Source of the DNA: an uncultured virus (IMG/VR IMGVR_UViG_3300005530_000005)
Lineage: Duplodnaviria > Heunggongvirae > Uroviricota > Caudoviricetes
Strand: one strand, 5' to 3'
DNA length: 64,000 bases
IMG/VR virus record: IMGVR_UViG_3300005530_000005
Every line of letters starts with the position of its first letter. Position 1 is the first letter of the stretch. The notes beneath the pieces are model-generated. The model worked only from the letters and a program-made list of their open reading frames with translations, searched no databases and was not told where the DNA came from. Shown in pieces: positions 4,038 through 54,543 of the stretch. A program made the position numbers and the translations under genes.

Positions 4038-4665
4038 TAACAATACGCTTGAAGGCATTTTGATCAGCTCACTTCGTACCAATATCTATCTTACGAAGGA
4101 TGGCACAGAACTTAATCTTAGCATGAATGTTAGGATTGTTGATGAAGACACAGATGTTGCATTTACTGATGCTACAAATCTTCAGAACATCCTTACCAAT
4201 GTTGTTAAGGAAGTAGTGAATGATTATGCTGCTGACGGTCAAGAAGTCGACTAATACGTGAACAGACGTTTAAATACGTTTGATCAAATACTTCAACGGG
4301 ATTTGCCGGAAGAGAAGATGATTGATAATCAACTCCTTATTCGTATCCGGCATCTCCCTGTTGATCCTCTTAAACTAAAAGAGGCATATTTTGAAATCGA
4401 ACGCCGAACTAAGAATATTATTTCAACAGTATTTGAAGAGTTTGAAATAAATGGTCCAAAAGAAAAGTACGTCAAGATATCGAATACGCAATTGGATTGA
4501 AGATGAGCTTTATCCAAATGAATATTGCGATCAATCATCTTTAGATGTTTATGAAAAAGAAGATAAGCCGTATGCTACTGGTGTGTTAGATATTAACGGT
4601 AATGAATATATGAGATTTCCTGATAAGAAGAAAATTGGTTTTCAACTTTATTAAAAGAGAAATAA

Positions 4666-5328
4666 GTGAACGAATACGTAATTACATTTAAGCATGATGA
4701 TGAAGGATTTATGCGACATATCTTTGCTGAGAACGAAGATGATGCTGTAGGTATTGCCTTTGCTCGTGCAAGAGGAATGAATACAAAGTTTGATAATAAG
4801 AAGGTGTATGATCTGGATATTCAGAATATTAGTAAACCTAAGAAAGCTTCCAGGTCTCCACGAGAGACTTTTGAGGCAGCCCTCAATGATCCACCTATGG
4901 CGCGCCCTGTTACTTTGAATGATGCAGTTGGTGATGTTCCTAATTGGGGAACTCCCGCAACCTTAAATGTTCCGCCAGTTGCGGCCCCTCCGGTTACTCA
5001 CGTGACTATGGCGCAGGCTGAGGCAGTATTTAGGACGCATGGTGCTTTCTTTAGAGAGCAGGATTGGCGAGTTGGTTATCAATTCTATATGGCTGGTAGG
5101 GACTATATGATTGTTCCTGGTCCTGTAAATGAAACCATGCAAGCTACGACTCAATATGTTAATGAAGGAGCTAATGCTGCTGCGGAAACTACTGGTGAAG
5201 CAAATCGATATCAGCTCCAGCAAGCATATCAAGAAGCTGCGACACAAATGGAAAATGTCGGTCAACAAAGATTAAGTGATACCTTAATTTACCAATTCCG
5301 AGTACCTCTCCAAGAGCCGGATAATTAA
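4666..5328 (+). CDS. Hypothetical protein, last gene of the + strand operon
   Basis: 220-aa ORF followed by the terminator at 5349. Confidence 0.65.
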   Translation: MNEYVITFKHDDEGFMRHIFAENEDDAVGIAFARARGMNTKFDNKKVYDLDIQNISKPKKASRSPRETFEAALNDPPMARPVTLNDAVGDVPNWGTPATLNVPPVAAPPVTHVTMAQAEAVFRTHGAFFREQDWRVGYQFYMAGRDYMIVPGPVNETMQATTQYVNEGANAAAETTGEANRYQLQQAYQEAATQMENVGQQRLSDTLIYQFRVPLQEPDN

Positions 5329-7085: not shown

Positions 7086-9016
7086 TATTGGGGTACTCCA
7101 TTATTAAGTATTTGCTGTGTTTGCTGATCAGTTGAGGGCGTGGATGTATCTTTCTCAGCTGCTCCAGTTTCCAATGATGGCACACCTTGACGAAATACGT
7201 AAGCTGCATCTTTCCAGGGTTGTGATTGGCGACCAGTCATGAGGTCTTTCATGAAGGATTGAACACGAGGGCCGTAAAATCCACGAGAAGCAATAGAGGA
7301 CAATCCTGCAAGACCTAACAGTCCTACTACTTCTTCTGGACCGTAGCCGTGCATAGCTCCATATCCTGCTGAACCCGCACCGGCACTAAACATAAGTCCG
7401 TTGCCAAGTTGGTGCCAAATGCGCCCCGTAGCTTCTCTATTTGCCGTCTCACTGTCGGGCAAACGAGTAAGAACAGAGTTGCTGGCGTTGACCATATCCT
7501 GCAATGGCATTTCGCCCTCTGATGTACGACCTTTAAAGGCGCTTTTATCGCTCTGCTTCATACCCGTACCAAATTGCGCAGGAGTAGCAGTGCCCTGAGT
7601 ATTGACAGCTTTCTCGCTACCCTTACGAGTGTACATAGAGTAGAGACGATAGCCTTCATCCGTATTAGCTAAATCTGCTGCAAGATCAGGCGGCGCATTT
7701 TTCATTGCTTGTCCCTTGATGGCATCATATAGCATTTCAAGATGATTGCCTAGCTTGCGATCATTGAAGTTATCTGCACCTTTATAGCCTTCATATTCTT
7801 TGCGCAAATCAGACAAAGATGCTTCCAACTGATTGCCACTCAATTGACCCTGGCCATTTAATTTTGATGTAAATAGATTTTGGCGAATTTCGTTATAGAG
7901 GTCTTGATTTCCTTTGCCAAGAATTGGTGAACTAGCCATCAGTGCTTGATCAATAGTTTGGAATGTAGGATCAGCATTGGTAAAGCTCATCTGATTGTAC
8001 AGAGAGGGGTACTTTTTATTGAACTGCTCTTTTACATATTTAGAAATCTCTTGGCCATTTTCCAAATCTTTGGGAAGTTCGCCCAATCCCGCACGAGTGA
8101 GTGCTTCTTGACCATACGCTTTATTAAGATCAAGTACACCCCTACTTTGGGCATTACGAATTTGTGGGCCAATCCAAGGTAAGCCAGAAGACAGTGATTC
8201 TGCCTGTCCAAGACTTCCCATAATAGGATTATCGGACTGTCTGGCTAACTGACCAAAAGTCGGATTAATTCCTTTATCTAAAAGAAGTTTAGTTTGTGCG
8301 TTTACATTCGGAGAGACGACAGTACCTAGTACATGACCTAATACACCGAGCAGTCCGCCTTCGCCAATTTGCTTCAACTTATCCACGGCAAATCCCGCTG
8401 TTCCATCCTTAAGATTATCTTCTCTCGGAGTCAGGGCACCCGCCAATCCGCCCGCTTTAATTGCATTCCAGAGTTCTGCTGCCTGAGTTGCCCCCTTAGC
8501 TTCGGGAGATACCGCCAGTGTAATAAGACCGCTAGCCATGTCGCTTGTAGGATCGGGCGAACTATTATGTCCTGTGGCATCAATATTTCCCGGATCACCG
8601 CGATTAAGATTATAATCTTGCTGATACTGTTCCCAAACTCTGCGACTTTCATTATTACCGGACAGCGCATCCACGCCTTGGGCAATTGCTCTAGCAGGTT
8701 CCATAAGTCCGTGAAGTGCATGTCCTAATTGTCCATGCTGCGCCATCCATGCGCCAACTCCATTATCTGTAGGCTTGCGCATTGTTGATTGATCAGGACC
8801 ATTTTCCAAAGGGGCAGTGGCCGTGTCGGGACTAATGAAGGAAGGCGTTTCATGCTGTAGCGGGGGGCTGTTTGGTGCCATTTGCGCAGGAGCAGAAGAG
8901 GGGGTCACAGCAGGAGGTCCATTTTTAGTCATGACCATGCCATCAGCAGTCTGATACTGACTGCCTACAGGAATATTTGCGTAATCTTGGTCAGAACTTA
9001 CAATTGGTAGAGCCAT
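7085..9016 (-). CDS. Internal virion (ejection) protein
   Basis: 643 aa, helical G/A/Q-rich; position in podovirus structural module. Confidence 0.6.
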   Translation of the reverse strand: MALPIVSSDQDYANIPVGSQYQTADGMVMTKNGPPAVTPSSAPAQMAPNSPPLQHETPSFISPDTATAPLENGPDQSTMRKPTDNGVGAWMAQHGQLGHALHGLMEPARAIAQGVDALSGNNESRRVWEQYQQDYNLNRGDPGNIDATGHNSSPDPTSDMASGLITLAVSPEAKGATQAAELWNAIKAGGLAGALTPREDNLKDGTAGFAVDKLKQIGEGGLLGVLGHVLGTVVSPNVNAQTKLLLDKGINPTFGQLARQSDNPIMGSLGQAESLSSGLPWIGPQIRNAQSRGVLDLNKAYGQEALTRAGLGELPKDLENGQEISKYVKEQFNKKYPSLYNQMSFTNADPTFQTIDQALMASSPILGKGNQDLYNEIRQNLFTSKLNGQGQLSGNQLEASLSDLRKEYEGYKGADNFNDRKLGNHLEMLYDAIKGQAMKNAPPDLAADLANTDEGYRLYSMYTRKGSEKAVNTQGTATPAQFGTGMKQSDKSAFKGRTSEGEMPLQDMVNASNSVLTRLPDSETANREATGRIWHQLGNGLMFSAGAGSAGYGAMHGYGPEEVVGLLGLAGLSSIASRGFYGPRVQSFMKDLMTGRQSQPWKDAAYVFRQGVPSLETGAAEKDTSTPSTDQQTQQILNNGVPQ

Positions 9017-44890: not shown

Positions 44891-45157
44891 GTGGCCAGAT
44901 TTAAAGCTGATGATTATGTTGTATTCATAAAGCCAGAATACACTGTACAAGAATGTGTTACCATTCATATTCTAGAAATTGATCTAATTGGAGAATATTA
45001 TATCTGTGATCATATTTATACTGATAGCAGATATGAAAAATATTATGCGCCAGAATGGGACATTTCACATATAGATCAAATGTGCAAATTAGCACCATTA
45101 GATTTTAGATTGAAGAATTTTGTTACAGGTAAATTAAAGGCTATGGGATATGGCTAA
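44891..45157 (+). CDS. KFKVGD/FVxxKL family paralogue 3
   Basis: MARFKADD...LKNFVTGKLKAMGY. Confidence 0.8.
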   Translation: MARFKADDYVVFIKPEYTVQECVTIHILEIDLIGEYYICDHIYTDSRYEKYYAPEWDISHIDQMCKLAPLDFRLKNFVTGKLKAMGYG

Positions 45158-45386
45158 ATTCAAGGTGGGAGATACATTTCGTGAAAGTAATTCCCTTAAT
45201 CCTAAGAGAACCTGGACAGTTCTGACCGTGGGCGATAGAGACTATATTTATAAGATAAATTTTAGGCAATTTCGAACAAGCTCACAAAGAATAGAATCAA
45301 TAGATCAATACTGCGTTCTTGCAATTCCGCCTTTAGAGGTATTTGTGCAAAATAAATTGAAAGCATTAGGTTATGCCAAAGTTTAA
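45150..45386 (+). CDS. KFKVGD/FVxxKL family paralogue 4
   Basis: MAKFKVGD...LEVFVQNKLKALGY. Confidence 0.85.
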   Translation: MAKFKVGDTFRESNSLNPKRTWTVLTVGDRDYIYKINFRQFRTSSQRIESIDQYCVLAIPPLEVFVQNKLKALGYAKV

Positions 45387-45606
45387 AGTAGGAGATATTA
45401 TCCAATCAAAACATCGTAATGTCTGGGATAATGCTACGTGGACAATACTTGCTGTTAGTGAAACAGAATATAGATGGCAATATAATTTAGGCAGCGCTGC
45501 GGGCTGGTCTTTTTTCGATGATCTGGAATCTTCTTGCGAAATCTGTCAATCTAAGTTAGATAAATATGTTAAAGACAAACTCTTAACAATGGGAATAAAA
45601 CTTTGA
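45373..45606 (+). CDS. KFKVGD/FVxxKL family paralogue 5
   Basis: MPKFKVGD...LDKYVKDKLLTMGI. Confidence 0.85.
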   Translation: MPKFKVGDIIQSKHRNVWDNATWTILAVSETEYRWQYNLGSAAGWSFFDDLESSCEICQSKLDKYVKDKLLTMGIKL

Positions 45607-45779
45607 ACTACATGGATACCTTCTGGTACTGCTTCCTTCAAGATTTCACAGATGATGAACAGACACGAGCAGAGCAGCAATCAAAGCGCCGCCTGTCTGA
45701 AATTCTAGAGCAGCATCAGAAAGATGCACGAACTAAGATTAGGCTTGAAGGTGAACTATATTCTCATTAAGGTGTAATT

Positions 45780-46049
45780 ATGCCTAAGTTTAAAATTGGG
45801 GATGTTATATCGCGTCCTAATCCAGATTGGGCAGAGGACGGTGTAAAAGTAAGAGTACGGGAGGTCATAGGACTTGTAACAAGTTGGGCTGGAAGTCCTG
45901 CTTATAGACTTAAAAGAATTTCTCCTGATAGTAAGGGTGAAGATTTTACCCTCAGATACGAAACTTGCGAAAGGGATTATTCTTTGCATAGTCCATTAGA
46001 AGCTTTCGTAAGGGGGAAATTAGAAAGTCTTGGCTATGGCAAAGTTTAA
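45780..46049 (+). CDS. KFKVGD/FVxxKL family paralogue 6
   Basis: MPKFKIGD...LEAFVRGKLESLGY. Confidence 0.85.
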   Translation: MPKFKIGDVISRPNPDWAEDGVKVRVREVIGLVTSWAGSPAYRLKRISPDSKGEDFTLRYETCERDYSLHSPLEAFVRGKLESLGYGKV

Positions 46050-46278
46050 AGTCGGGGATATTCTTAAACACAAAGAATATTCCAATATCAGAAAGATATT
46101 AGCTATTGAGTCAGCTGGCTATAGAACTAAACAACTTACACTTGGACGGAGTGCGGCTTATGATTATGGCAGAGAGCGGCTAGAATTTTTTCATTGGATT
46201 GATTCCAACTACGACTATACAAATCCATTAGCATCTTTTGTTAAAGCAAAATTAGCCGAACTTGGATATACATCATGA
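46036..46278 (+). CDS. KFKVGD/FVxxKL family paralogue 7
   Basis: MAKFKVGD...LASFVKAKLAELGY. Confidence 0.85.
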   Translation: MAKFKVGDILKHKEYSNIRKILAIESAGYRTKQLTLGRSAAYDYGRERLEFFHWIDSNYDYTNPLASFVKAKLAELGYTS

Positions 46279-46607
46279 TGCTCACTACAGGGGATAAGTT
46301 TAAGTACAAAGAAGAACATATCCGTAGTTTGGAATGGCTGACCGCTGAAGAACTTGATTTAGTGCGAAATTATGTATTTGAATTTACAAATTCTGCTACA
46401 AATGAAGAACATGATTACGATGAAGATGACAATATAATTGGAACGACAGAATATACTGCATATTATTTTAATTATGATTACAGAGGGCGTAAAGTTCAAA
46501 TGTCCTTTATTGAGGACGATATAAAAGACGAATTGGAGCGCACCCAAGTTCTTGAAACATTTGTAGCCAGAAAGCTGGAATCTTTAGGGATTAAAATAAA
46601 TGGCTAA
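46275..46607 (+). CDS. KFKVGD/FVxxKL family paralogue 8 (acidic insert)
   Basis: LTTGDKFKY...LETFVARKLESLGI. Confidence 0.8.
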   Translation: MMLTTGDKFKYKEEHIRSLEWLTAEELDLVRNYVFEFTNSATNEEHDYDEDDNIIGTTEYTAYYFNYDYRGRKVQMSFIEDDIKDELERTQVLETFVARKLESLGIKING

Positions 46608-46863
46608 ATACAAAGTGGGGGATCAATTTAAGGGAAATACTGGAGGGCCATTTGAAGGGTGGATATTTACTATAATATCAACAGAGTTAGCCCGACCAGA
46701 ACGAATATTATATGAGTTTACCTATGTAGATCATAATAAAAGTGGAGGAAGCACGTATTGGCAGGAGATATCTTTTGATACATACACCACGCCTATAAAC
46801 ACTTTAAAATCCTTTGTACAGCGGAAATTAGAGGAAAAAGGAATTAAGGTGACTTTGACTTAA
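46600..46863 (+). CDS. KFKVGD/FVxxKL family paralogue 9
   Basis: MAKYKVGD...LKSFVQRKLEEKGI. Confidence 0.85.
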   Translation: MAKYKVGDQFKGNTGGPFEGWIFTIISTELARPERILYEFTYVDHNKSGGSTYWQEISFDTYTTPINTLKSFVQRKLEEKGIKVTLT

Positions 46864-46883
46864 GCAAATAAATATGTTATATT
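46855..46883 (+). promoter_or_regulatory. sigma70-like promoter heading the kinase / tRNA-like / GluRS operon
   Basis: TTGACT-taagc..(17)-TATATT with TG extension. Confidence 0.8.
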
Positions 46884-46955
46884 ATATGAACAATGAGCGA
46901 AACATGTCGCTGAAATAAGTAAGCAGTTAATGGCCTAGTAATCGGGAGTAAGAAA

Positions 46956-47375
46956 ATGGCAAAGCTTGTAGTAATTCGTGGATTGCCCGGTAGTGGCAAG
47001 TCAAAGAAGGCTCACGAGATTGCAACAGAGTACAAAGGGACAGTCGTTTCGGTTGATGATTATTTCACTGTAGACGGCGAGTATCGATTTAAGGACACGG
47101 AAATTAGCCGTGCGTATGGATATGTTGAGGGAAAAATCACTGCTCTTATGTCGGGCGGCACAGAGACAATTATCGCTGACGGCATTCATCAATCTGAAAA
47201 GCATATTCAAAGCTACCGCCGACTAGCTGAAAAGTTCGGCTATGAGTTGGAAATTCAATATCCAGATGGTGATATCTTTGATATTGAACAATGTTTCCAA
47301 CATTCCATCCACAAAGTTCCCCGTCGAACAATCGCAAAAATTGCAGAACGATTTGAGCGCGATATAGCGGCTTAA
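46956..47375 (+). CDS. P-loop kinase (AAA_33 / polynucleotide-kinase-like)
   Basis: LVVIRGLPGSGKS Walker A, SVDDYF, HKVP..TI. Confidence 0.85.
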   Translation: MAKLVVIRGLPGSGKSKKAHEIATEYKGTVVSVDDYFTVDGEYRFKDTEISRAYGYVEGKITALMSGGTETIIADGIHQSEKHIQSYRRLAEKFGYELEIQYPDGDIFDIEQCFQHSIHKVPRRTIAKIAERFERDIAA

Positions 47376-47383
47376 TCGGCTAT

Positions 47384-47475
47384 GACGCCTTCGTCTAGAG
47401 GCTTAGGACAGTAGAAATTTGTGCGTTTTGCTGTAATTTCTAACAACACAGGTTCGAAACCTGTAGGCGTCGCCA
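47384..47475 (+). ncRNA. tRNA-Glu-like RNA with anticodon arm replaced by an extended stem (92 nt, encoded CCA)
   Basis: Acceptor GACGCCT/AGGCGTC, G73, CCA; D-arm GTCTAGAGGCTTAGGAC; T-arm ACAGG-TTCGAAA-CCTGT; 33-nt arm with TAGAAATT/AATTTCTA stem and no canonical 7-nt loop. Confidence 0.88.
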
Positions 47476-47493
47476 ATTAATTGTGAGATAAAA

Positions 47494-47760
47494 ATGAACT
47501 ATTATGTGGGCCAGAAATTAAGATTTAAAAATCCTCAAGACAGATATATGTATGAAGATTTCATAACAATATTAGAACTCGGCACTCGTTTTGGTGGGAA
47601 TGAAATTGTTATGGAGTGGACATATAAGGATAATAATCGAGAGAAAGTTAGAGTATGCTGGACCAGAAAAGACTTGGATGCAGAATTAATAGTTGTGGAT
47701 GCACTTAAGGAATTTGTCCGTAATAAATTATCCTCTATGGGGATTACAATAAATGGCTAA
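47494..47760 (+). CDS. KFKVGD/FVxxKL family paralogue 10
   Basis: MNYYVGQ...LKEFVRNKLSSMGI. Confidence 0.8.
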   Translation: MNYYVGQKLRFKNPQDRYMYEDFITILELGTRFGGNEIVMEWTYKDNNREKVRVCWTRKDLDAELIVVDALKEFVRNKLSSMGITING

Positions 47761-48022
47761 ATATAAAGTAGGGGATAAGTTTACTCATTGTTATGAGCCT
47801 GGATTTATAGCCACAATCACTTCCATTGATGAGGGAGTCTACCATATACATTGGACAGCAATTCCCGATTATGAATTTGATGATGGAATCGAAACCGAGG
47901 ACTGTGATAGTTCCCATAATTTTGAAAGCATTGAAAATAACTCGGCTACTTGGCAATTTTTAGGTAGTTCTTTAGAATTATTTGTTCGTGAGAAACTTGC
48001 AACATTAGGAATTAAAATATGA
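47753..48022 (+). CDS. KFKVGD/FVxxKL family paralogue 11
   Basis: MAKYKVGD...LELFVREKLATLGI. Confidence 0.85.
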   Translation: MAKYKVGDKFTHCYEPGFIATITSIDEGVYHIHWTAIPDYEFDDGIETEDCDSSHNFESIENNSATWQFLGSSLELFVREKLATLGIKI

Positions 48023-48915
48023 TCCCTTATCATACTCGCATTGCGCCGTCACCTACTGGTTTTGCCCATATCGGCACAATTCGTACTGCATTATTCAATT
48101 ATCTAGCTGCCAAACAGACAGGTGGCCAATTCACCCTTCGTATCGATGACACAGACACGAATAGAAATAATGAAGAAGCCGTACAGCCAATCTATGATGC
48201 TCTACAGTGGCTTGGCCTACAATGGGATGATACATTCCGCCAAAGTTCCCGTACCGATATTTACAAAGAAGCTGCCCATAAACTTCTGGAAGCCGGACTT
48301 GCAGTTCGCCTAGATAATGGTGCCATTGCGCTTCTTTGGAATGATGAAATTCCACGAGCATGGCATGATAGTATTGCCGGTGAAATTAAAATCACAGATA
48401 CGAACATAGAACAAATTCACGGTCGTACAATTCTCCTTAAAGGTGATGAACATGGGAATGCACCAATCTATCAGTTTACTTCTACTTTTGACGATTGGGA
48501 TACCGATATATCTTACGTTATTAGGGGTGTCGATCATATTACGAACACAGCCAAACAACTCGCTATTTGGTGGGCTCTTAATGCGTGTTATAATCTTAAT
48601 AAGTTTCGGCCTGCTTTTGCCCATGTGGGGCTGATATTTAAAGACGGAAAGAAATTATCTAAACGAGAAGGTGCTGCAAGCGCTCTTTGGTTCAGAGATC
48701 AGGGGTATCTGCCGGAAGCTATGTTTGCATTTTTGCTTCGTCTAGGATGGGCTCCAAGAAATGATGATAAGGATAGCTATACGCTCAGTATTGATCAAGC
48801 TAAGGAGCTATTCCTTACTCACGGCAAGATGCGTAGTAGTAACGCACAGATGGATATGGCAAAGCTAGATTCTGTTCAGAAGAAGTTTCTAGCTCGAATG
48901 AAAGTGGCAGCGTAA
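48019..48915 (+). CDS. Minimal glutamyl-tRNA synthetase-like protein (catalytic domain only)
   Basis: TRIAPSPTGFAHIGTIRTALFNY (HIGH), LRIDDTD, QSSR, VIRGVDH, KKLSKR (KMSKS); ends at DMAKLD..KKFL before the anticodon-binding domain. Confidence 0.92.
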   Translation: MIPYHTRIAPSPTGFAHIGTIRTALFNYLAAKQTGGQFTLRIDDTDTNRNNEEAVQPIYDALQWLGLQWDDTFRQSSRTDIYKEAAHKLLEAGLAVRLDNGAIALLWNDEIPRAWHDSIAGEIKITDTNIEQIHGRTILLKGDEHGNAPIYQFTSTFDDWDTDISYVIRGVDHITNTAKQLAIWWALNACYNLNKFRPAFAHVGLIFKDGKKLSKREGAASALWFRDQGYLPEAMFAFLLRLGWAPRNDDKDSYTLSIDQAKELFLTHGKMRSSNAQMDMAKLDSVQKKFLARMKVAA

Positions 48916-49226
48916 TGGATCAGTGGATAAAATGCCACGAATGTGGTCAACATTCTATGGGATCAGGATGGTTTTCGTGCTGGCATTGTGGGGCGTCCCT
49001 CTGTGCTATATTGAAATCGCTGTTTTAAACCAGTCAAATCTAGGGGATATAAATGGACCTTGAAAATCTCACCAATCAGTCTGTAGCTTTCCGTTGCAAA
49101 ACCAATATCACGAATTATTGGAAGGGCAAGGGATATAAGAATATCAAATGTGAAGTACACAATGTAAATGGAGTGTTTGTTGTAACCTCCAATTTGGGAC
49201 CAACGGGGTTTCCTCCAGGATAATAA

Positions 49227-50861: not shown

Positions 50862-52727
50862 ATGGCAAAGGGTCTTACTGGATACCGCAAGCATCTGCCG
50901 TATTATTCTCCAAAAGCTACATGGAAAGATATCCAGCAGCTTCTTGAAAATTCTCGGGATCAATTTGAAGATGCATATGATAGCGTAGTTGGAACATTTA
51001 AGGAGTTCGCACAGCACGAAATGTCGCATTCTGTGTGTCGTCTTGTGCGAATTCTTTCTACTGAATATATGAAGGCTGAGGCTCTGTTCCGATCAGTTGG
51101 CGGTGCTATTAATTTCACACACATGTACGCCCTTACTCCTAATGAACCCGGCAAGCTGCGTGTGTTTACGAATTTTGAAATCACTCCTGGGCATACAGGA
51201 GAAGCATTGACGGGCGCATGTCCCTATCATCAATATAGTGTTGTCGAGGCACTTCTCAAGCGCATCAATGAAGATATGAGTAAGCCTGCACAGCAGAAAG
51301 CATGGGTACCCATTGCTCGTGGTCGAAGCCGTCTCAAGCGCTATGAAGATATGCCCATTGAGCGCGCACTGATGCGTTATACAGACGCCAAAACGCGCCA
51401 CAATATGAATGATGCTGGCATTAAGCAAGTTGCAGCAGCATTCGAGGAACTTCGTCAGCCTCTTGAATTGCACTTTGCAGAGACGCCTGAACAAGTTCTT
51501 TATATGTATTCCAGCGGCCCATCCTCGTGTATGTCTGCTGTTGGCAAGGAGCGCGCCTGGGGATCGATGACAAATCATGGTCGCCATCCCTGTGATTTCT
51601 TTGCATATCACCCCTATGTTCGCGGATGTTACACCAAGACAAAGGCAAAAGGTGCTGTTACTGCTCGTGTGTTCCTTTACACAAAGGAAAATAAGCAGGA
51701 ATATTATGGCCGCATCTATGGTACAGATGGCCGTGCTGCTACTGCACTGAAGAATGCCCTTGAAGAAAAGGGTATTCGTAGTCTTCCAGATGATGGTGGC
51801 ACTTCTCGCGATGGTTTCTCAGGAATGTTTGCCCGTGAATGCACATTTAAAATTCCCGGAGTACAAATGGGATCGGATTGGGTAGTTCCATTTCCGTATA
51901 TGGACAATCTTCGTGGGGGTGTTAATTTCACCTTTGATGAAAAGACGCATGAATTTACCGCTAATTGCTATGATGGTAGCGGCTACACGATTGTAGACGG
52001 TAAGAAGATTGCTTATCGTGAGTTTCCAAGTTACACGGGTATTACTGCTGGCTACATTTCAAGCAGTCAACTAGGTACACACACTTGTCACCATTGTGGT
52101 GCCCCTATAAATCGTACGAATAAGTACCTCCAATATGCAGAACGAGACACAGGACATAAGTATTGTGGCCCAGGTTGCCTTGCTTCATTGAACAAGTGTA
52201 TTGCAATTGTTGGCGATAGTACACGAGTAATTATGAATCAATCTGATGCATATTATGATGGCATTTCTGGCAATTTCTACACAACTGAAATGGCGTGTAA
52301 AGAGCGCGGCGGTGTTCCGTATGAGCCTGATCCCTGTGTTCGTTCGGAAGAGGTTACACTCACCACTGGCGGCTATGCAATTGCGGATTATAGAACAAGT
52401 GGTTCGGAGTATGCTGAAATGGCCAATCGTGTGTTTGGCATGAATAAGATTTTATTGGAGGGTAGACTTAAGGTTGAGGCCAAGAAGTATATGGAAGTTG
52501 ATTGGAGTAAGCACGAGGGTATTCGTATCATTGGCGAAATTCCAGAAGATTTTCATGCAGAAATCGATAATCGCTATGGGTATCCTATTGCAGAAGAGAC
52601 GTTTAGAGGACGAAAGATTTCCTATGCTGCGGATAAATCCAATCCTACTATCTCGAATAAAATTCGAGGCGCAATTCCCCTGAGTGCCTATTCCCGTCTG
52701 AATGAAGATCAAGAAGTAGCAGCTTAA
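50862..52727 (+). CDS. Hypothetical 621-aa protein with SCM and PYMD motifs and a zinc finger (ends QEVAA)
   Basis: GPSSCMS, ARVFLY..GRIYG, FPYMDN, CHHC..YCGPGC. Confidence 0.75.
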   Translation: MAKGLTGYRKHLPYYSPKATWKDIQQLLENSRDQFEDAYDSVVGTFKEFAQHEMSHSVCRLVRILSTEYMKAEALFRSVGGAINFTHMYALTPNEPGKLRVFTNFEITPGHTGEALTGACPYHQYSVVEALLKRINEDMSKPAQQKAWVPIARGRSRLKRYEDMPIERALMRYTDAKTRHNMNDAGIKQVAAAFEELRQPLELHFAETPEQVLYMYSSGPSSCMSAVGKERAWGSMTNHGRHPCDFFAYHPYVRGCYTKTKAKGAVTARVFLYTKENKQEYYGRIYGTDGRAATALKNALEEKGIRSLPDDGGTSRDGFSGMFARECTFKIPGVQMGSDWVVPFPYMDNLRGGVNFTFDEKTHEFTANCYDGSGYTIVDGKKIAYREFPSYTGITAGYISSSQLGTHTCHHCGAPINRTNKYLQYAERDTGHKYCGPGCLASLNKCIAIVGDSTRVIMNQSDAYYDGISGNFYTTEMACKERGGVPYEPDPCVRSEEVTLTTGGYAIADYRTSGSEYAEMANRVFGMNKILLEGRLKVEAKKYMEVDWSKHEGIRIIGEIPEDFHAEIDNRYGYPIAEETFRGRKISYAADKSNPTISNKIRGAIPLSAYSRLNEDQEVAA

Positions 52728-52755
52728 TTTTAGTTTATAATATGGAGAATGTAAA

Positions 52756-54543
52756 ATGGTTTATCGGATAAACGGATCAAATCGTCCTTCCTTTGATGAT
52801 ATGGTTCTCCTGACTACGAAAAATCCTAAAATTGATCCGCTGCTTTTTAATCTTCTGCGTAATGCTACTCCCTATCCAGATGAGGAGCCTGTAGCCAAAA
52901 TCATTCTGGAGTGGGCAAAGAAGTGTGGTGTGGATATTGATAACACTGAATTTGTATGGTTTAGCGAGAAAGAGAAGAACCTTATCATCGATTTGAGAAC
53001 CGATGAAACTCATACAACCATGTTCAGTGCCCATATGGATACCTGTCAGGGCACTCCGGGAATTATTAACTTGTATTTTACAACTAAGGATTGTAAGGAC
53101 CCAGGAGAGGGATTTATTTATGCAGGACGTAATCAGCGCTTATACACTATGTATGATTATGAAAATCCTGCTACAGAAATTGATTTTGCCGAGGCTCTTA
53201 AGAAAGAAAAAATCTATAATTACGAATTAGATTTCGATTTCACTAAGAAGAATAAAGATAAAATTCTATGTAAAGTCGAAGAGCGCTCTCTTAATGGCCC
53301 CAATAAAGCCACAGATTTGCGTTTTTGGGCAAAGCATACACACAATAATGCCTCACCTGCTGTATTAGGAGCCGACGATAAGATCGGCTGTTATATTATG
53401 TGTAAGCTTATGGAAGCAGGAGTTAAGGGACTTTATGTATTCCATGTCGGGGAAGAAAGGGGCTGTAAAGGTTCTGAGTATCTTGCAAAAGAATATAAGG
53501 ACTATTTCACGGGGACTAAGAATGAGGGAACTTTAGCTCCTGTGAAGCGGTGTATTGCATTTGATCGTGCAGGATACAAGGACGTTATCTCCAAGCAACG
53601 CAGAGGAAATACAAGCTCAAAAGAATTTACAGATGAACTTGCCAAAGCATTGAATGCTCATATTCCTCAAATGTCCTGGTTTAATGGGGATGTTCAGGGA
53701 GTTTATACAGATAGTGCAGAATATATGGATATTATTCCTGAATGCACTAATCTATCTGTGGGCTATTTTAATCAGCATACAGATAAAGAACACACGGATT
53801 ATGTGTGGTTGGCAAGTATTTTCCTTCCCGCAGTTTTGAAAGTTGAATGGGATAAACTTGGCACATATAGGGACCCCCAGGCCCGCCCTACGTATCAAGC
53901 CTCGACTTACTGTGGGGGGCAATATGGTACTAACACCACCTTTCGCTCGCAAAGCCCGTTCGCGCCATCACAAGTCACGTCGGCGACGTCGCTAATGATG
54001 TGCCCGAAATGGGACCCTATGACTGGATTGATCGAAGAAGCTTCTGTTGAGGGTATGCGACGTATTATTGAGTCGTATTTGGACATCGATGCAAAGTCAG
54101 TATTCACTAAAGTTAGCATTCTGTTTGATATGGCAAAGCGTATGGACAGTTTGCAGGAGGACCTTGTATCAATCTATTCGTTTTTGGTCAGTAAAGGCTT
54201 CAATAAAGAAGATATTGCGGAATGGGTCGAGCAAACATTTGGCGGAAATAATGATCAATTTTCTAACGATCCAAATGGTGGATTTGAGAAAGATGAGCAG
54301 ACTACTGTAGAGGAAATGCTCGGAGAACAGTATTGTGAAAATTGTTATTATGTTAAATCTCAGTGTAACTGTAACTTAGCTAATGATAATAGATCGCCGC
54401 AACGAGAGGATTTTCCAGATGAAGCTACATTTCAAAGTGCTATAGTTGAATATCAAATTAGGGTTTCATCCACTGGAGCAACGCCAAAGACAGTACAAGA
54501 ATTGATTTCAGATGAAGACATTCGTGCAAAGTTGGAGAAATAA
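52756..54543 (+). CDS. M20/M28-like zinc peptidase
   Basis: AHMDT, LGADDKIG, GEERG, AFDR, YTDSA, NLSVGYFNQHT. Confidence 0.85.
   Translation: MVYRINGSNRPSFDDMVLLTTKNPKIDPLLFNLLRNATPYPDEEPVAKIILEWAKKCGVDIDNTEFVWFSEKEKNLIIDLRTDETHTTMFSAHMDTCQGTPGIINLYFTTKDCKDPGEGFIYAGRNQRLYTMYDYENPATEIDFAEALKKEKIYNYELDFDFTKKNKDKILCKVEERSLNGPNKATDLRFWAKHTHNNASPAVLGADDKIGCYIMCKLMEAGVKGLYVFHVGEERGCKGSEYLAKEYKDYFTGTKNEGTLAPVKRCIAFDRAGYKDVISKQRRGNTSSKEFTDELAKALNAHIPQMSWFNGDVQGVYTDSAEYMDIIPECTNLSVGYFNQHTDKEHTDYVWLASIFLPAVLKVEWDKLGTYRDPQARPTYQASTYCGGQYGTNTTFRSQSPFAPSQVTSATSLMMCPKWDPMTGLIEEASVEGMRRIIESYLDIDAKSVFTKVSILFDMAKRMDSLQEDLVSIYSFLVSKGFNKEDIAEWVEQTFGGNNDQFSNDPNGGFEKDEQTTVEEMLGEQYCENCYYVKSQCNCNLANDNRSPQREDFPDEATFQSAIVEYQIRVSSTGATPKTVQELISDEDIRAKLEK

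What the first reader, a model, noticed from the sequence alone, without database searches (positions are those of the whole stretch)
47384..48915. Anticodon-less tRNA-Glu mimic paired with a GluRS lacking its anticodon-binding domain
Seen: a 92-nt RNA with perfect acceptor and T stems, encoded CCA, and a D-arm and 4-nt variable loop (GTCTAGAGGCTTAGGAC; CAAC) nearly identical to bacterial tRNA-Glu. The 17-nt anticodon arm is replaced by 33 nt: an 8-bp TAGAAATT/AATTTCTA stem and a U/G-rich end with no U33-UUC loop. About 540 bp downstream, under the same promoter (46855), is a 298-aa class I synthetase with intact HIGH and KMSKS equivalents. It stops where the anticodon-binding domain would begin and has a shortened Zn/acceptor-binding insert. 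Known: G1:C72, U11:A24, U13:G22:A46 and absence of nucleotide 47 are E. coli tRNA-Glu identity elements, and all are retained here. GluQ-RS (YadB) is a catalytic-only paralogue, but it glutamylates queuosine on tRNA-Asp. Inference: the matching losses suggest a co-evolved orthogonal pair making Glu-RNA for a non-ribosomal use, such as modifying protein, cell wall or nucleic acid. Alternatively the pair is a decoy against anticodon nucleases or HipA-type kinases, which target the KLSKR serine retained here.
Basis: partly seen in the sequence, partly recalled or inferred. Interest (0 to 1): 0.93.

Follow-up and report, generated by a model that had tools for sequence, protein, structure and literature searches.

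The report
Phage tRNA-Glu look-alike beside minimal GluRS
A soil phage carries a tRNA-Glu-shaped RNA that has no anticodon, sitting just upstream of a glutamyl-tRNA synthetase cut down to its catalytic core, and both belong to larger, apparently undescribed groups in phages.

Summary
Bases 47384..47475 fold into a cloverleaf with perfect acceptor, D and T stems, a Glu-type D arm, a 4-nt variable loop and an encoded CCA. An 8-bp stem with a 15-nt loop replaces the anticodon arm. The ORF at 48019..48915 is a 298-aa bacterial-type GluRS catalytic core. It has no anticodon-binding domain and a shortened, cysteine-free insert.

New evidence:
- The enzyme belongs to a single clade of about 260-325-aa GluRS found on viral contigs. 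These genes often follow arrays of 2-4 normal tRNA-Glu genes.
- Four phage lineages with this enzyme carry Glu-bodied RNAs without a usable anticodon arm.
- Such RNAs are far more widespread than the enzyme. I found 31 expanded-arm and 38 truncated-arm variants, and 14 of 15 tested records lack any GluRS.
- The closest complete relative has the enzyme but no such RNA.

The strict "co-evolved orthogonal pair" reading is therefore only partly supported. My best reading (confidence about 0.4) is that the anticodon-blind enzyme charges this non-decoding RNA. The main rival is that the two are independent counter-defence parts acting on Glu-tRNA supply. No charging, processing or acceptor is shown.

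The parts
46855..46883 (+). Promoter-like site TTGACT-17-TATATT with a TG motif, upstream of the kinase ORF
   Evidence: 10 of 12 matches. Such sites are no more frequent here than in shuffles, so this is only a candidate.
46956..47375 (+). 139-aa P-loop kinase of the polynucleotide-kinase type. Its stop codon lies 8 nt before the RNA.
   Evidence: AAA_33, E 1.3e-9; phrog_2071 ATPase, E 1.1e-20, and phrog_505 polynucleotide kinase, E 2.1e-13.
47384..47475 (+). 92-nt tRNA-Glu-bodied RNA with an encoded CCA and no anticodon loop
   Evidence: sequence. (cloverleaf is the minimum-free-energy fold, z -2.49). (RF00005, 14.6 bits, below the gathering score). (the stems covary across 22 Glu-bodied relatives).
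47411..47443 (+). 33-nt hairpin that replaces the 17-nt anticodon arm. It has an 8-bp A/U-rich stem, a 3x3 internal loop, a 2-bp GC stem and a 5-nt loop.
   Evidence: ARAGORN in intron mode can only force a 14-nt 'intron' at position 33/34. There is no second copy or complement of the loop sequence in the window.
47494..47760 (+). 88-aa ORF, a member of the tandem small-protein family, between the RNA and the GluRS gene
47753..48022 (+). 89-aa ORF of the same family. It overlaps the GluRS start codon.
47950..47978 (+). Second promoter-like site TTGGCA-17-TAGAAT, just upstream of the GluRS gene
   Evidence: 10 of 12 matches
48019..48915 (+). 298-aa catalytic-core-only GluRS, a member of the short phage GluRS clade
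   Evidence: AlphaFold2 model with pLDDT 94.6; best structural matches are bacterial GluRS, TMq 0.79-0.86; clade support 99.

Best explanation
The RNA is a maintained gene derived from tRNA-Glu. It keeps everything a synthetase without an anticodon-binding domain could read: the G1:C72 acceptor helix, the CCA end, the Glu-specific augmented D helix, the missing nucleotide 47 and the T arm. A non-decoding hairpin has taken the place of the anticodon arm.

The neighbouring 298-aa protein belongs to a phage-borne clade of bacterial-type GluRS reduced to the Rossmann core plus a shortened acceptor-side insert. Across that clade the gene travels with tRNA-Glu-type genes, so tRNA-Glu bodies are its likely substrates.

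I therefore think the enzyme most likely attaches glutamate to the 3' end of this RNA, independently of any anticodon. The product, Glu-RNA, cannot be used by the ribosome. It would then serve away from the ribosome, as a glutamyl donor, as bait for host factors that attack charged tRNA-Glu or the GluRS-tRNA complex, or as a bound cofactor of the enzyme.

Shown: the structures, the family membership and the genomic associations. Inferred: charging, the fate of the product, and whether the two genes need each other.
For: 1. Structure and conservation. The cloverleaf is the minimum-free-energy fold. In an alignment of 22 Glu-bodied RNAs, 97.6% of cells pair. Seventeen of 21 pairs show changes on both sides. 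The covariation score is 0.769 against 0.189 in shuffles (0 of 500 reach it) and at most 0.146 when partners are slid. U11:A24 and U13.G22 are each present in 22 of 22.

2. Enzyme.
- TIGR00464 gives 273.3 bits, GluQRS 134.2 bits.
- The best solved relative is E. coli GluRS 8i9i, E 5e-50.
- The AlphaFold2 model has pLDDT 94.6.
- Foldseek gives TMq 0.79-0.86 to bacterial GluRS and 0.67-0.72 to GluQRS.
- HIGH, KMSKS and R7 are invariant in the family.

3. All 33 short forms make one clade (SH-aLRT 99) inside bacterial-type GltX.

4. Nine of 41 short-form loci have a canonical tRNA-Glu within 5 kb, against 4 of 24 viral and 1 of 79 bacterial full-length loci. In L009, L010, L012, L014 and L037, arrays of 3-4 tRNA-Glu genes end 4-511 nt before the start codon.

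5. In whole records of related 63-68-kb phages, the only convincing tRNA-type genes are anticodon-less Glu-bodied RNAs. G007 has one plus a 14.9-bit match that ARAGORN does not call, and G008 has three. One G008 RNA has a 7-bp stem capped by a CUUG tetraloop, so there is nothing to splice out. G014 has a 67-nt version with a 9-nt arm.

6. Three of 68 pattern hits in 2.9 million viral contigs lie on contigs that carry the short GluRS.

7. A precedent exists: a CysRS lacking its anticodon-binding domain, dedicated to an unusual tRNA (PMC5389517, passages). The title of Dubois 2009, seen only in a reference list, says a C-truncated E. coli GluRS stays specific for tRNA-Glu.
Against: 1. G006, a complete 62-kb phage whose enzyme is 59% identical, has only a normal tRNA-Tyr and no Glu-like RNA. 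L005, L007 and L021 have none within 5 kb.

2. Anticodon-less Glu-bodied RNAs mostly occur without the enzyme. PF00749 is found in 0 of 5 expanded-arm records and 1 of 10 truncated-arm records. Eight of the 15 records are at least 90% complete, and none of those has it. The RNA class therefore works without a phage GluRS, perhaps uncharged.

3. Odd anticodon arms are not specific to Glu bodies.

4. The enzyme ends before the stem-contact and anticodon-binding domains. It may not read the D helix at all, which would leave conservation of the D arm unexplained by this enzyme.

5. No enzyme that would use Glu-RNA was found nearby. No protein neighbour is conserved across the family.

6. Odd tRNA-likes directly upstream of the gene in L011, L016, L017 and L041 are not Glu-bodied.
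Confidence: 0.4

Rival explanations
1. The two genes are independent modules aimed at the same host weak point. The enzyme keeps host or phage tRNA-Glu charged for translation when host GluRS or tRNA-Glu is attacked. The RNA acts uncharged, as a decoy or sponge for a host factor that recognises the tRNA-Glu body. The two are neighbours but are not enzyme and substrate.
For: Each occurs without the other: G006 has the enzyme only, and 14 of 15 tested RNA-bearing records lack any GluRS. Most relatives of the enzyme sit beside decoding tRNA-Glu genes with UUC or CUC anticodons. Host defences that cut tRNA bodies, and phage tRNAs that counter them, are documented (abstracts of PMC11555353, PMC13096335 and PMC12673091, seen in the listing). 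E. coli GluRS depends strongly on anticodon nucleotides (PMC9976931, passages), so in phages without the enzyme these RNAs may stay uncharged.
Against: This reading does not explain why, in G007, G008 and the window, the only convincing tRNA-type genes are Glu-bodied in exactly the phages that carry a GluRS. It also does not explain the encoded CCA or the position in the same gene string. No tRNA-Glu-directed bacterial defence was identified here.
Confidence: 0.3
2. The RNA is a processing or stability element. It would be a tRNA-shaped punctuation mark cut by RNase P and 3' nucleases. This would split the early polycistronic transcript, or give it a defined end, and so tune expression of the kinase, the small ORFs and the GluRS gene.
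For: The RNA starts 8 nt after the kinase stop codon, inside a dense string of + strand ORFs. A metatranscriptome contig spans 47359..47539 without a break. Arm-less tRNA-like elements with other bodies are also common in viral contigs. tRNA or tRNA-like genes lie directly upstream of the GluRS gene in at least 10 loci.
Against: Punctuation needs only an acceptor and T minihelix. It explains neither the retained Glu-specific D helix (22 of 22), nor the encoded CCA, nor the restriction to Glu bodies in G007 and G008.
Confidence: 0.1
3. The RNA is a decoding tRNA whose anticodon arm carries a short insert that is removed or tolerated. That would give an anticodon of GUA (Tyr) or UUG (Gln).
For: ARAGORN in intron mode returns Tyr(GTA) with a 14-nt insert. 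Removing a different 14 nt by eye gives the loop AUUUGAU. Two expanded Glu-bodied RNAs elsewhere (L175, L198) have CUG or UUG loops followed by an insert.
Against: The implied insert sits at a non-canonical position. It is far too short for a group I intron, and no Rfam intron family matches. The fold shows a symmetric 3x3 internal loop rather than offset bulges. Canonical-looking loops next to the stem occur in 4 of 31 expanded RNAs, about the number expected by chance. The G008 and G014 relatives have tetraloop-capped or 9-nt arms with nothing to remove. The only RNA-library contig across the element is unspliced and no joint was found; this is weak evidence, because contigs drop rare forms.
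Confidence: 0.07
4. The RNA is a decaying tRNA-Glu pseudogene left beside a still-useful GluRS gene.
For: Relatives have canonical tRNA-Glu genes at the same relative position. One relative's enzyme gene (L024) is itself broken by a stop codon.
Against: All 16 non-arm base pairs are intact and the replacement arm is a perfect 8-bp helix. Anticodon-less Glu bodies persist in phages whose enzymes have diverged to 41-53% identity, with compensatory changes in their stems.
Confidence: 0.05
5. The enzyme works like GluQRS. It would put glutamate on a modified base, perhaps in the enlarged arm, rather than on the 3' end.
For: The size and the lack of an anticodon-binding domain match GluQRS (4a91, TMt 0.74).
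Against: The GluQRS models score less than half of their cut-offs (134.2 against 276.7 bits). GluQRS sequences lie outside the GltX-plus-short clade with support 100. The arms have no conserved sequence among relatives.
Confidence: 0.03

Closest known systems
cysS*/selC* pair of Desulfobacterales: a CysRS lacking its anticodon-binding domain, dedicated to an unusual tRNA-Cys (Mukai et al. 2017, PMC5389517; passages read)
   Same: A class I synthetase has lost its anticodon-binding domain and has an altered acceptor-side insert. It is encoded next to a non-canonical tRNA whose anticodon the normal enzyme would not accept.
   Different: In that case the tRNA keeps a working (opal) anticodon and decodes, and enzyme and tRNA always co-occur. 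Here the RNA has no anticodon loop, co-occurrence is loose, and the system is phage-borne and concerns Glu.
GluQRS (YadB), the catalytic-domain paralogue of GluRS
   Same: About 300 aa, no anticodon-binding domain, activates glutamate.
   Different: The window protein scores 134 bits against a cut-off of 277 on the GluQRS model but 273 bits on the gltX model. It branches inside GltX, away from GluQRS. It has no cysteines in the insert. It is linked to tRNA-Glu genes, not to tRNA-Asp or dksA.
Engineered C-truncated E. coli GluRS (Dubois et al. 2009; only the title was seen, in the reference list of PMC4393105)
   Same: A GluRS without its distal domains that, according to the title, remains specific for tRNA-Glu.
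   Different: That enzyme is a laboratory construct. The present one is a natural, diversified phage clade with a further shortened insert and an RxDDTD signature (30 of 31 short forms, against RxEDTD in 89 of 101 full-length GltX).
Non-decoding tRNA-like RNAs: mascRNA (PMC9976931, passages), B. cereus tRNA-Other (mentioned in PMC5389517), bacterial YrlA RNAs (PMC4201824, search listing only)
   Same: These are tRNA-shaped RNAs with no role in decoding. [quoted passage not shown]
   Different: None of them is a Glu-bodied, CCA-encoding phage RNA next to its own minimal synthetase. YrlA has its ends in the anticodon-side helix rather than an open acceptor stem (recalled).
Phage tRNAs as counter-defence against tRNA-cleaving immunity (PMC11555353 and PMC13096335, abstracts in the listing)
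   Same: A phage-encoded tRNA-type gene whose value lies in host-phage conflict rather than in codon usage.
   Different: Those are decoding tRNAs that replace cleaved host tRNAs. This RNA cannot decode.

Membership tests
Bacterial GluRS (GltX, TIGR00464 / PF00749) | Class I catalytic domain with HIGH and KMSKS motifs | tested here: met
   PF00749 at E 4e-58. HIGT at residues 17-20 and KLSKR at 212-216, with H17, G19, T20, K212, K215 and R216 invariant in 34 sequences. Foldseek TMq 0.79-0.86 to solved GluRS structures.
Bacterial GluRS (GltX, TIGR00464 / PF00749) | Whole-protein score above NCBIfam's equivalog cut-off | tested here: not met
   273.3 bits against a cut-off of 289.95
Bacterial GluRS (GltX, TIGR00464 / PF00749) | C-terminal stem-contact and anticodon-binding domains | tested here: not met
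   The ORF stops at residue 298. The match ends at profile position 320 of 470 and at chain residues about 326-338 of 475-488. Only PF00749 is found.
Bacterial GluRS (GltX, TIGR00464 / PF00749) | Full-size acceptor-side insert with a zinc site, as in E. coli | tested here: not met
   Residues 98-145 replace residues 98-175 of 8i9i and contain no Cys. The abstract of PMC4381286 says many bacterial GluRS lack the zinc motif, so this feature is not strictly defining.
Bacterial GluRS (GltX, TIGR00464 / PF00749) | Glutamylates tRNA-Glu | not testable with these tools
   Only genomic association with tRNA-Glu genes is available
GluQRS (YadB, TIGR03838) | Score above the equivalog cut-off and clade membership | tested here: not met
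   134.2 bits against 276.7. Two GluQRS sequences form a separate branch with support 100.
GluQRS (YadB, TIGR03838) | Glutamylation of queuosine 34 of tRNA-Asp | not testable with these tools
There is no tRNA-Asp gene in the window.
tRNA (RF00005) | Rfam gathering score | tested here: not met
   14.6 bits against 29
tRNA (RF00005) | 7-bp acceptor stem, D arm, 5-bp T stem with a TTCRANN loop, discriminator and CCA | tested here: met
tRNA (RF00005) | 5-bp anticodon stem closing a 7-nt loop with U33 | tested here: not met
   An 8-bp stem with a 15-nt loop. ARAGORN in default mode finds nothing.
Dedicated pair of an aaRS without anticodon-binding domain and a special tRNA (cysS*/selC* type) | Synthetase without anticodon-binding domain and with an altered acceptor-side insert | tested here: met
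Dedicated pair of an aaRS without anticodon-binding domain and a special tRNA (cysS*/selC* type) | Strict co-occurrence of the enzyme and its special tRNA | tested here: not met
   G006 has the enzyme but no Glu-like RNA. Only 1 of 15 RNA-bearing records has PF00749.
Dedicated pair of an aaRS without anticodon-binding domain and a special tRNA (cysS*/selC* type) | The partner tRNA decodes a codon | tested here: not met
   There is no anticodon loop
Intron-bearing tRNA | A recognisable intron type (group I, or a bulge-helix-bulge motif at position 37/38) | tested here: not met
   The extra sequence is 14-16 nt. No Rfam intron family matches. The implied position is 33/34 or 36/37. The fold shows a symmetric internal loop.
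Intron-bearing tRNA | A spliced form in RNA | tested here: inconclusive
   One RNA-library contig (47359..47539) is unspliced and no joints were found. These are contigs of low depth, so rare forms could be missed.

The most novel reading that the evidence does not exclude
Phages carry a previously unrecognised two-part system. One part is an anticodon-blind minimal GluRS. The other is a tRNA-Glu body stripped of its anticodon. Together they would make a pool of Glu-RNA that the ribosome cannot see, used for chemistry or conflict off the ribosome, for example as a glutamyl donor or as bait for toxins that hit charged tRNA-Glu. This RNA would be one member of a large hidden class of anticodon-less tRNA-Glu bodies in phage genomes.
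Probability: 0.3. Interest if true: 0.9.

Novelty: new variant of a known kind. Interest (0 to 1): 0.78.

Why it matters
If the enzyme charges this RNA, it would be a natural aminoacyl-RNA system with no link to the genetic code. That bears on how synthetases recognised tRNA before anticodon-binding domains were added. It bears on non-ribosomal uses of aminoacyl-tRNA. It could also supply naturally orthogonal pairs for synthetic biology.

Some results stand even without proof of charging. I found no published description, in seven full-text searches, of the following:
- a single phage clade of catalytic-core GluRS that travels with tRNA-Glu arrays;
- dozens of phage RNAs that keep the tRNA-Glu body but lack an anticodon.

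Together these point to Glu-tRNA supply as a contested node in phage-host conflict. They also give a concrete, cheap experiment: one protein, one 92-nt transcript.

Tried and rejected
- Whole-genome look-ups of the window failed because no genome is held.
- The GenBank phage collection has no DNA relative. It has only distant protein relatives, at most 37% identity.
They added no close relative of the phage. Contigs of the closest proteins (P0002 at 75%, P0003 at 72%) could not be fetched.
- I looked for a target of the arm. There is no other copy or complement of the loop in the window.
- I looked for RNA-repair, splicing or Glu-tRNA-using enzymes in the window. None was found among 86 ORF translations scanned: no RNA ligase, thymidylate-synthase-like, LanB-like or Fem-like family.
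- The idea that Glu-RNA feeds a DNA hypermodification rests only on the neighbouring kinase and dCMP deaminase, so I dropped it to a remote possibility.
- No neighbour protein is shared by the 31 expanded-arm loci. None is shared across the short-GluRS loci, apart from antisense artefacts.
- The 621-aa neighbour has no family in Pfam, PHROGs or the Atlas and only 10 homologues. I did not fold it.
- RNA-library contigs cover only parts of 46905..49197 at depth 2-4 and could be DNA carry-over. They show presence only. Uncovered parts say nothing.
- The careful tree search did not finish in 300 s, so the quick tree is reported.
Full report
**What is at the coordinates.** The window is most of a tailed-phage genome. 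It encodes terminase, portal and adaptor, major head protein, tail fibre, DNA polymerase, DnaB-like helicase, primase, ribonucleotide reductase and dCMP deaminase, plus an SU10-type adaptor. A DNA contig of 66,106 bases in a public rhizosphere run holds the laid stretch (46700..49200) without a difference.

Bases 47384..47475 (+) read as a tRNA:
- acceptor stem GACGCCT/AGGCGTC
- D arm GTCT-AGAGGCTTA-GGAC
- A26
- a 33-nt arm
- variable loop CAAC
- T arm ACAGG-TTCGAAA-CCTGT
- G73 and CCA

The minimum-free-energy fold is this cloverleaf, at -28.9 kcal/mol with z -2.49. The long arm folds as an 8-bp stem, a 3x3 internal loop, a 2-bp stem and a 5-nt loop. Standard tools do not call it a tRNA. ARAGORN finds none in the window. 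Rfam's tRNA model gives 14.6 bits against a threshold of 29. No Rfam family passes its threshold anywhere in the window.

The body is nearly the same as the bacterial tRNA-Glu genes that flank proviruses in my comparison set (L045, L048, L054). It keeps the non-anticodon Glu identity elements listed for E. coli in PMC9976931 (passages): G1:C72, U11:A24, U13.G22 with A46, and no nucleotide 47. It does not keep the weak element U2:A71. All the strong anticodon determinants (U34, U35, C36, A37) are absent.

**The enzyme.** The ORF at 48019..48915 (298 aa) matches the Glu/Gln class I catalytic domain at E 4e-58.
- It scores 273.3 bits on the bacterial gltX model (cut-off 289.95) and 134.2 bits on the GluQRS model (cut-off 276.7).
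- Against solved structures the best sequence match is E. coli GluRS 8i9i, at E 5e-50. Residues 5-97 align to chain residues 4-97, and residues 146-255 to chain residues 176-278. So 48 residues without cysteine replace the 78-residue insert that holds the zinc site. The protein ends where chains of 475-488 residues are at about residue 326-338.
- An AlphaFold2 model built from 34 family members has pLDDT 94.6. It superposes best on bacterial GluRS (TMq 0.79-0.86) and less well on GluQRS (0.67-0.72).
- HIGT and KLSKR are in place.
- A clade signature is RxDDTD, found in 30 of 31 distinct short forms. Full-length GltX has RxEDTD in 89 of 101. I do not know what this means.

**The enzyme family.** A search of 5.8 billion proteins returned thousands of relatives. 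Of the best 120, 116 are 228-325 aa. Many sit on contigs of 62-69 kb.

In IMG/VR I obtained 67 loci. Those with ORFs of 256-325 aa are L004-L041 and L044. In a quick maximum-likelihood tree, all 33 short forms make one clade: 31 distinct loci, the window, and the 635-kb phage LR745206. Support is SH-aLRT 99 on a branch of length 1.01. The clade lies inside bacterial-type GltX, and two GluQRS sequences lie outside it with support 100. I dropped eight rows from the tree: seven duplicates (L019, L026, L032, L034, L035, L040, L044) and L024, whose reading frame holds a stop codon. The careful search did not finish. The window groups with L004, L005, L006 and L036 (support 88).

**What travels with the enzyme.** Within 5 kb, ARAGORN finds a canonical tRNA-Glu in these proportions:
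- 9 of 41 short-form loci (duplicates and the fragment L068 included)
- 4 of 24 viral full-length loci
- 1 of 79 bacterial full-length loci

In L009, L010, L012, L014 and L037, three or four tRNA-Glu genes (UUC and CUC) end 4-511 nt before the start codon. L013 has one 88 nt downstream.

Scanner hits that ARAGORN does not call occur in 10 of 41 short-form loci, 1 of 24 viral full-length loci and 0 of 79 bacterial loci. Not all ten are anticodon-less. Those of L008 and L037 have UUC loops on unusual D arms. Those directly upstream of the gene in L011, L016, L017 and L041 have enlarged arms on bodies that are not Glu-like.

**Relatives of the RNA.** No close DNA relative of the RNA was found, apart from an identical 17-kb contig.

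Whole-record searches with the tRNA model gave the following:
- G007 (record of L006, complete, enzyme 53% identical) has one convincing tRNA-type gene: a 92-nt Glu-bodied RNA with an enlarged arm and an encoded CCA. A second, 14.9-bit match there is not called a tRNA by ARAGORN.
- G008 (record of L020, enzyme 41% identical) has only three Glu-bodied RNAs, 4.4 kb upstream of the enzyme gene. One has a 7-bp stem capped by CUUG. One has an 8-bp stem and an 18-nt loop. One has an irregular arm.
- G014 (the L031-L035 group) has a 67-nt Glu-bodied RNA with a 9-nt arm, next to a normal tRNA-Glu.
- G006 (record of L004, complete, enzyme 59% identical, syntenic with the window) has only a normal tRNA-Tyr.

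An alignment of 22 Glu-bodied RNAs shows strong covariation. It holds 6 anticodon-less RNAs, 13 canonical phage tRNA-Glu and 3 bacterial tRNA-Glu. In it, 97.6% of cells pair, and 17 of 21 pairs have changes on both sides. The score is 0.769, against 0.189 in shuffles (0 of 500 reach it) and at most 0.146 when partners are slid. These are maintained RNA genes.

**The RNA class is much wider than the enzyme.** A scan of 2.9 million viral contigs for a Glu-type D arm followed after 33-60 nt by GGTTCRA gave 68 loci.
- Thirty-three distinct sequences have good T and acceptor stems.
- Two of these are normal tRNA-Glu with long variable arms, and 31 have enlarged irregular arms.
- Only 4 of the 31 have a canonical-looking loop next to the stem, about what chance gives.
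- Three of the 68 loci lie on contigs that carry a short GluRS.

It gave 38 distinct well-paired Glu-bodied RNAs of 55-72 nt, with tiny arms or none.

Whole-record searches for PF00749 found it in 0 of 5 expanded-arm records and 1 of 10 truncated-arm records; the one is G014. Eight of the 15 records are at least 90% complete, and none of those has it.

As a control, I scanned for the common AGCTCAG..AGAGC D arm with 33-60 nt spacing. The hits are a mixture:
- tRNAs with long variable arms
- tRNAs with canonical-position introns, many from giant-virus bins
- anticodon-less forms

. Odd arms are therefore not peculiar to Glu bodies. What is peculiar is that the enzyme-bearing 63-68-kb phages have Glu bodies as their only convincing tRNA-type genes.

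**Expression.** Three rhizosphere metatranscriptome runs hold parts of the region. One contig (47359..47539, depth 3.6, no differences) crosses the whole RNA with both flanks, and no joints were found. This shows an unspliced, unprocessed form in an RNA library, or DNA carry-over. It says nothing about a mature small RNA.

**Reading.**
- Shown: a maintained tRNA-Glu body without an anticodon; a catalytic-core GluRS of a phage clade; a recurrent genomic link between that clade and tRNA-Glu-type genes; and loose, non-obligate co-occurrence with anticodon-less forms.
- Inferred: the enzyme, having no anticodon-binding domain, charges tRNA-Glu bodies through acceptor-side features and so can charge this RNA, and the product works off the ribosome.

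I put this reading at 0.4. The main rival, at 0.3, is that the enzyme and the RNA are separate tools aimed at the same node. In that view the enzyme keeps Glu-tRNA available and the RNA acts uncharged as a decoy. This fits the independent distributions better, but fits the Glu-only repertoire and the encoded CCA less well. The other rivals are less likely, for the reasons given under each: a processing punctuation mark (0.1), a tRNA with a removable insert (0.07), a decaying pseudogene (0.05) and GluQRS-like base glutamylation (0.03).

**Known relatives and novelty.** The nearest precedent is the CysRS without an anticodon-binding domain that serves the selC* tRNA-Cys (PMC5389517, passages). 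The present case differs in three ways: the RNA has lost the anticodon altogether, co-occurrence is not strict, and the system is viral.

Seven full-text searches found no description of short phage GluRS genes, of their tRNA-Glu arrays, or of anticodon-less Glu-bodied phage RNAs. I also looked inside PMC7824862 and PMC5388404 and found none. Subscription journals and supplements were not searched. I therefore rate this a new variant of a known kind. It has a fair chance of being more than that if charging and an off-ribosome use are shown.

Noticed in passing
window 44891..48022: A tandem array of nine paralogous small ORFs (77-110 aa). They share an N-terminus like MAKFKVGD and a C-terminus like L..FV..KL..LG (21-34% identity to the first). 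No Pfam or PHROG family matches. The kinase gene and the RNA sit inside the array. A 44-nt near-repeat of the junction at 47740..47783 occurs elsewhere in the same DNA contig.
   Followed up: partly
window 46956..47375: A 139-aa kinase of the polynucleotide-kinase type (phrog_505, phrog_2071, AAA_33) ends 8 nt before the RNA. No RNA ligase was found in the window. A weak homologue lies 4.7 kb from the GluRS gene in L004.
   Followed up: partly
window 50862..54543; L004 6966..10378; L020 1387..4701: A gene pair stays within 2 kb of the short GluRS gene in the window, L004 and L020. It consists of a protein of 553-621 aa with no known family and a protein of 545-595 aa resembling M28/M42 peptidases (phrog_4191). 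In L020 the pair lies between the three odd RNAs and the enzyme gene. Homologues of the 621-aa protein sit on the same contigs as further relatives of the enzyme.
   Followed up: partly
short GluRS family (A1; loci L004-L044): The clade signature is RxDDTD in 30 of 31 short forms. Full-length GltX has RxEDTD in 89 of 101 and never DDTD. The HIGH motif is mostly H[LIF]GT rather than H[VI]GG. The meaning for substrate choice is unknown.
   Followed up: no
L008 2822..3815, L009 4404..4743, L010 4521..4774, L012 4759..4994, L037 4572..4978: The tRNA-Glu arrays upstream of short GluRS genes hold up to three quite different bodies, all with UUC or CUC anticodons. One has a Glu-type D arm and two have unusual D arms. 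All have A73 and no encoded CCA.
   Followed up: no
L041 4718..4837; L011 4482..4583; L017 3217..3318, 4597..4693, 7892..8013; L016 4542..4623: Other tRNA-type genes of 82-122 nt near short GluRS genes carry inserts. The L041 element looks like tRNA-Asp(GUC) with about 50 nt inserted between the D arm and an intact anticodon stem-loop. The L016 arm contains a CCUUCGGG hairpin.
   Followed up: no
L436 and other loci (for example L399, L356, L364): Glu-bodied RNAs with almost no anticodon arm. The shortest is 55 nt, with acceptor stem, D arm, a 5-nt linker, T arm and an encoded CCA. They occur in complete phage records that have no GluRS gene.
   Followed up: partly
L018/L019 3640..3715; L067 3878..4448: tRNAs with a UUA anticodon (which would read the TAA stop codon) lie near short GluRS genes. 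These phages may read the code differently.
   Followed up: no
L024 4974..5744: This relative's short GluRS reading frame is interrupted by a stop codon after the KLSK motif. It is probably a broken copy.
   Followed up: no
proteins P0004, P0008, P0022, P0028: Four close relatives of the enzyme are 430-499 aa long because of C-terminal tails. The tails align with nothing else in the family alignment. I did not test whether they resemble an anticodon-binding domain.
   Followed up: no
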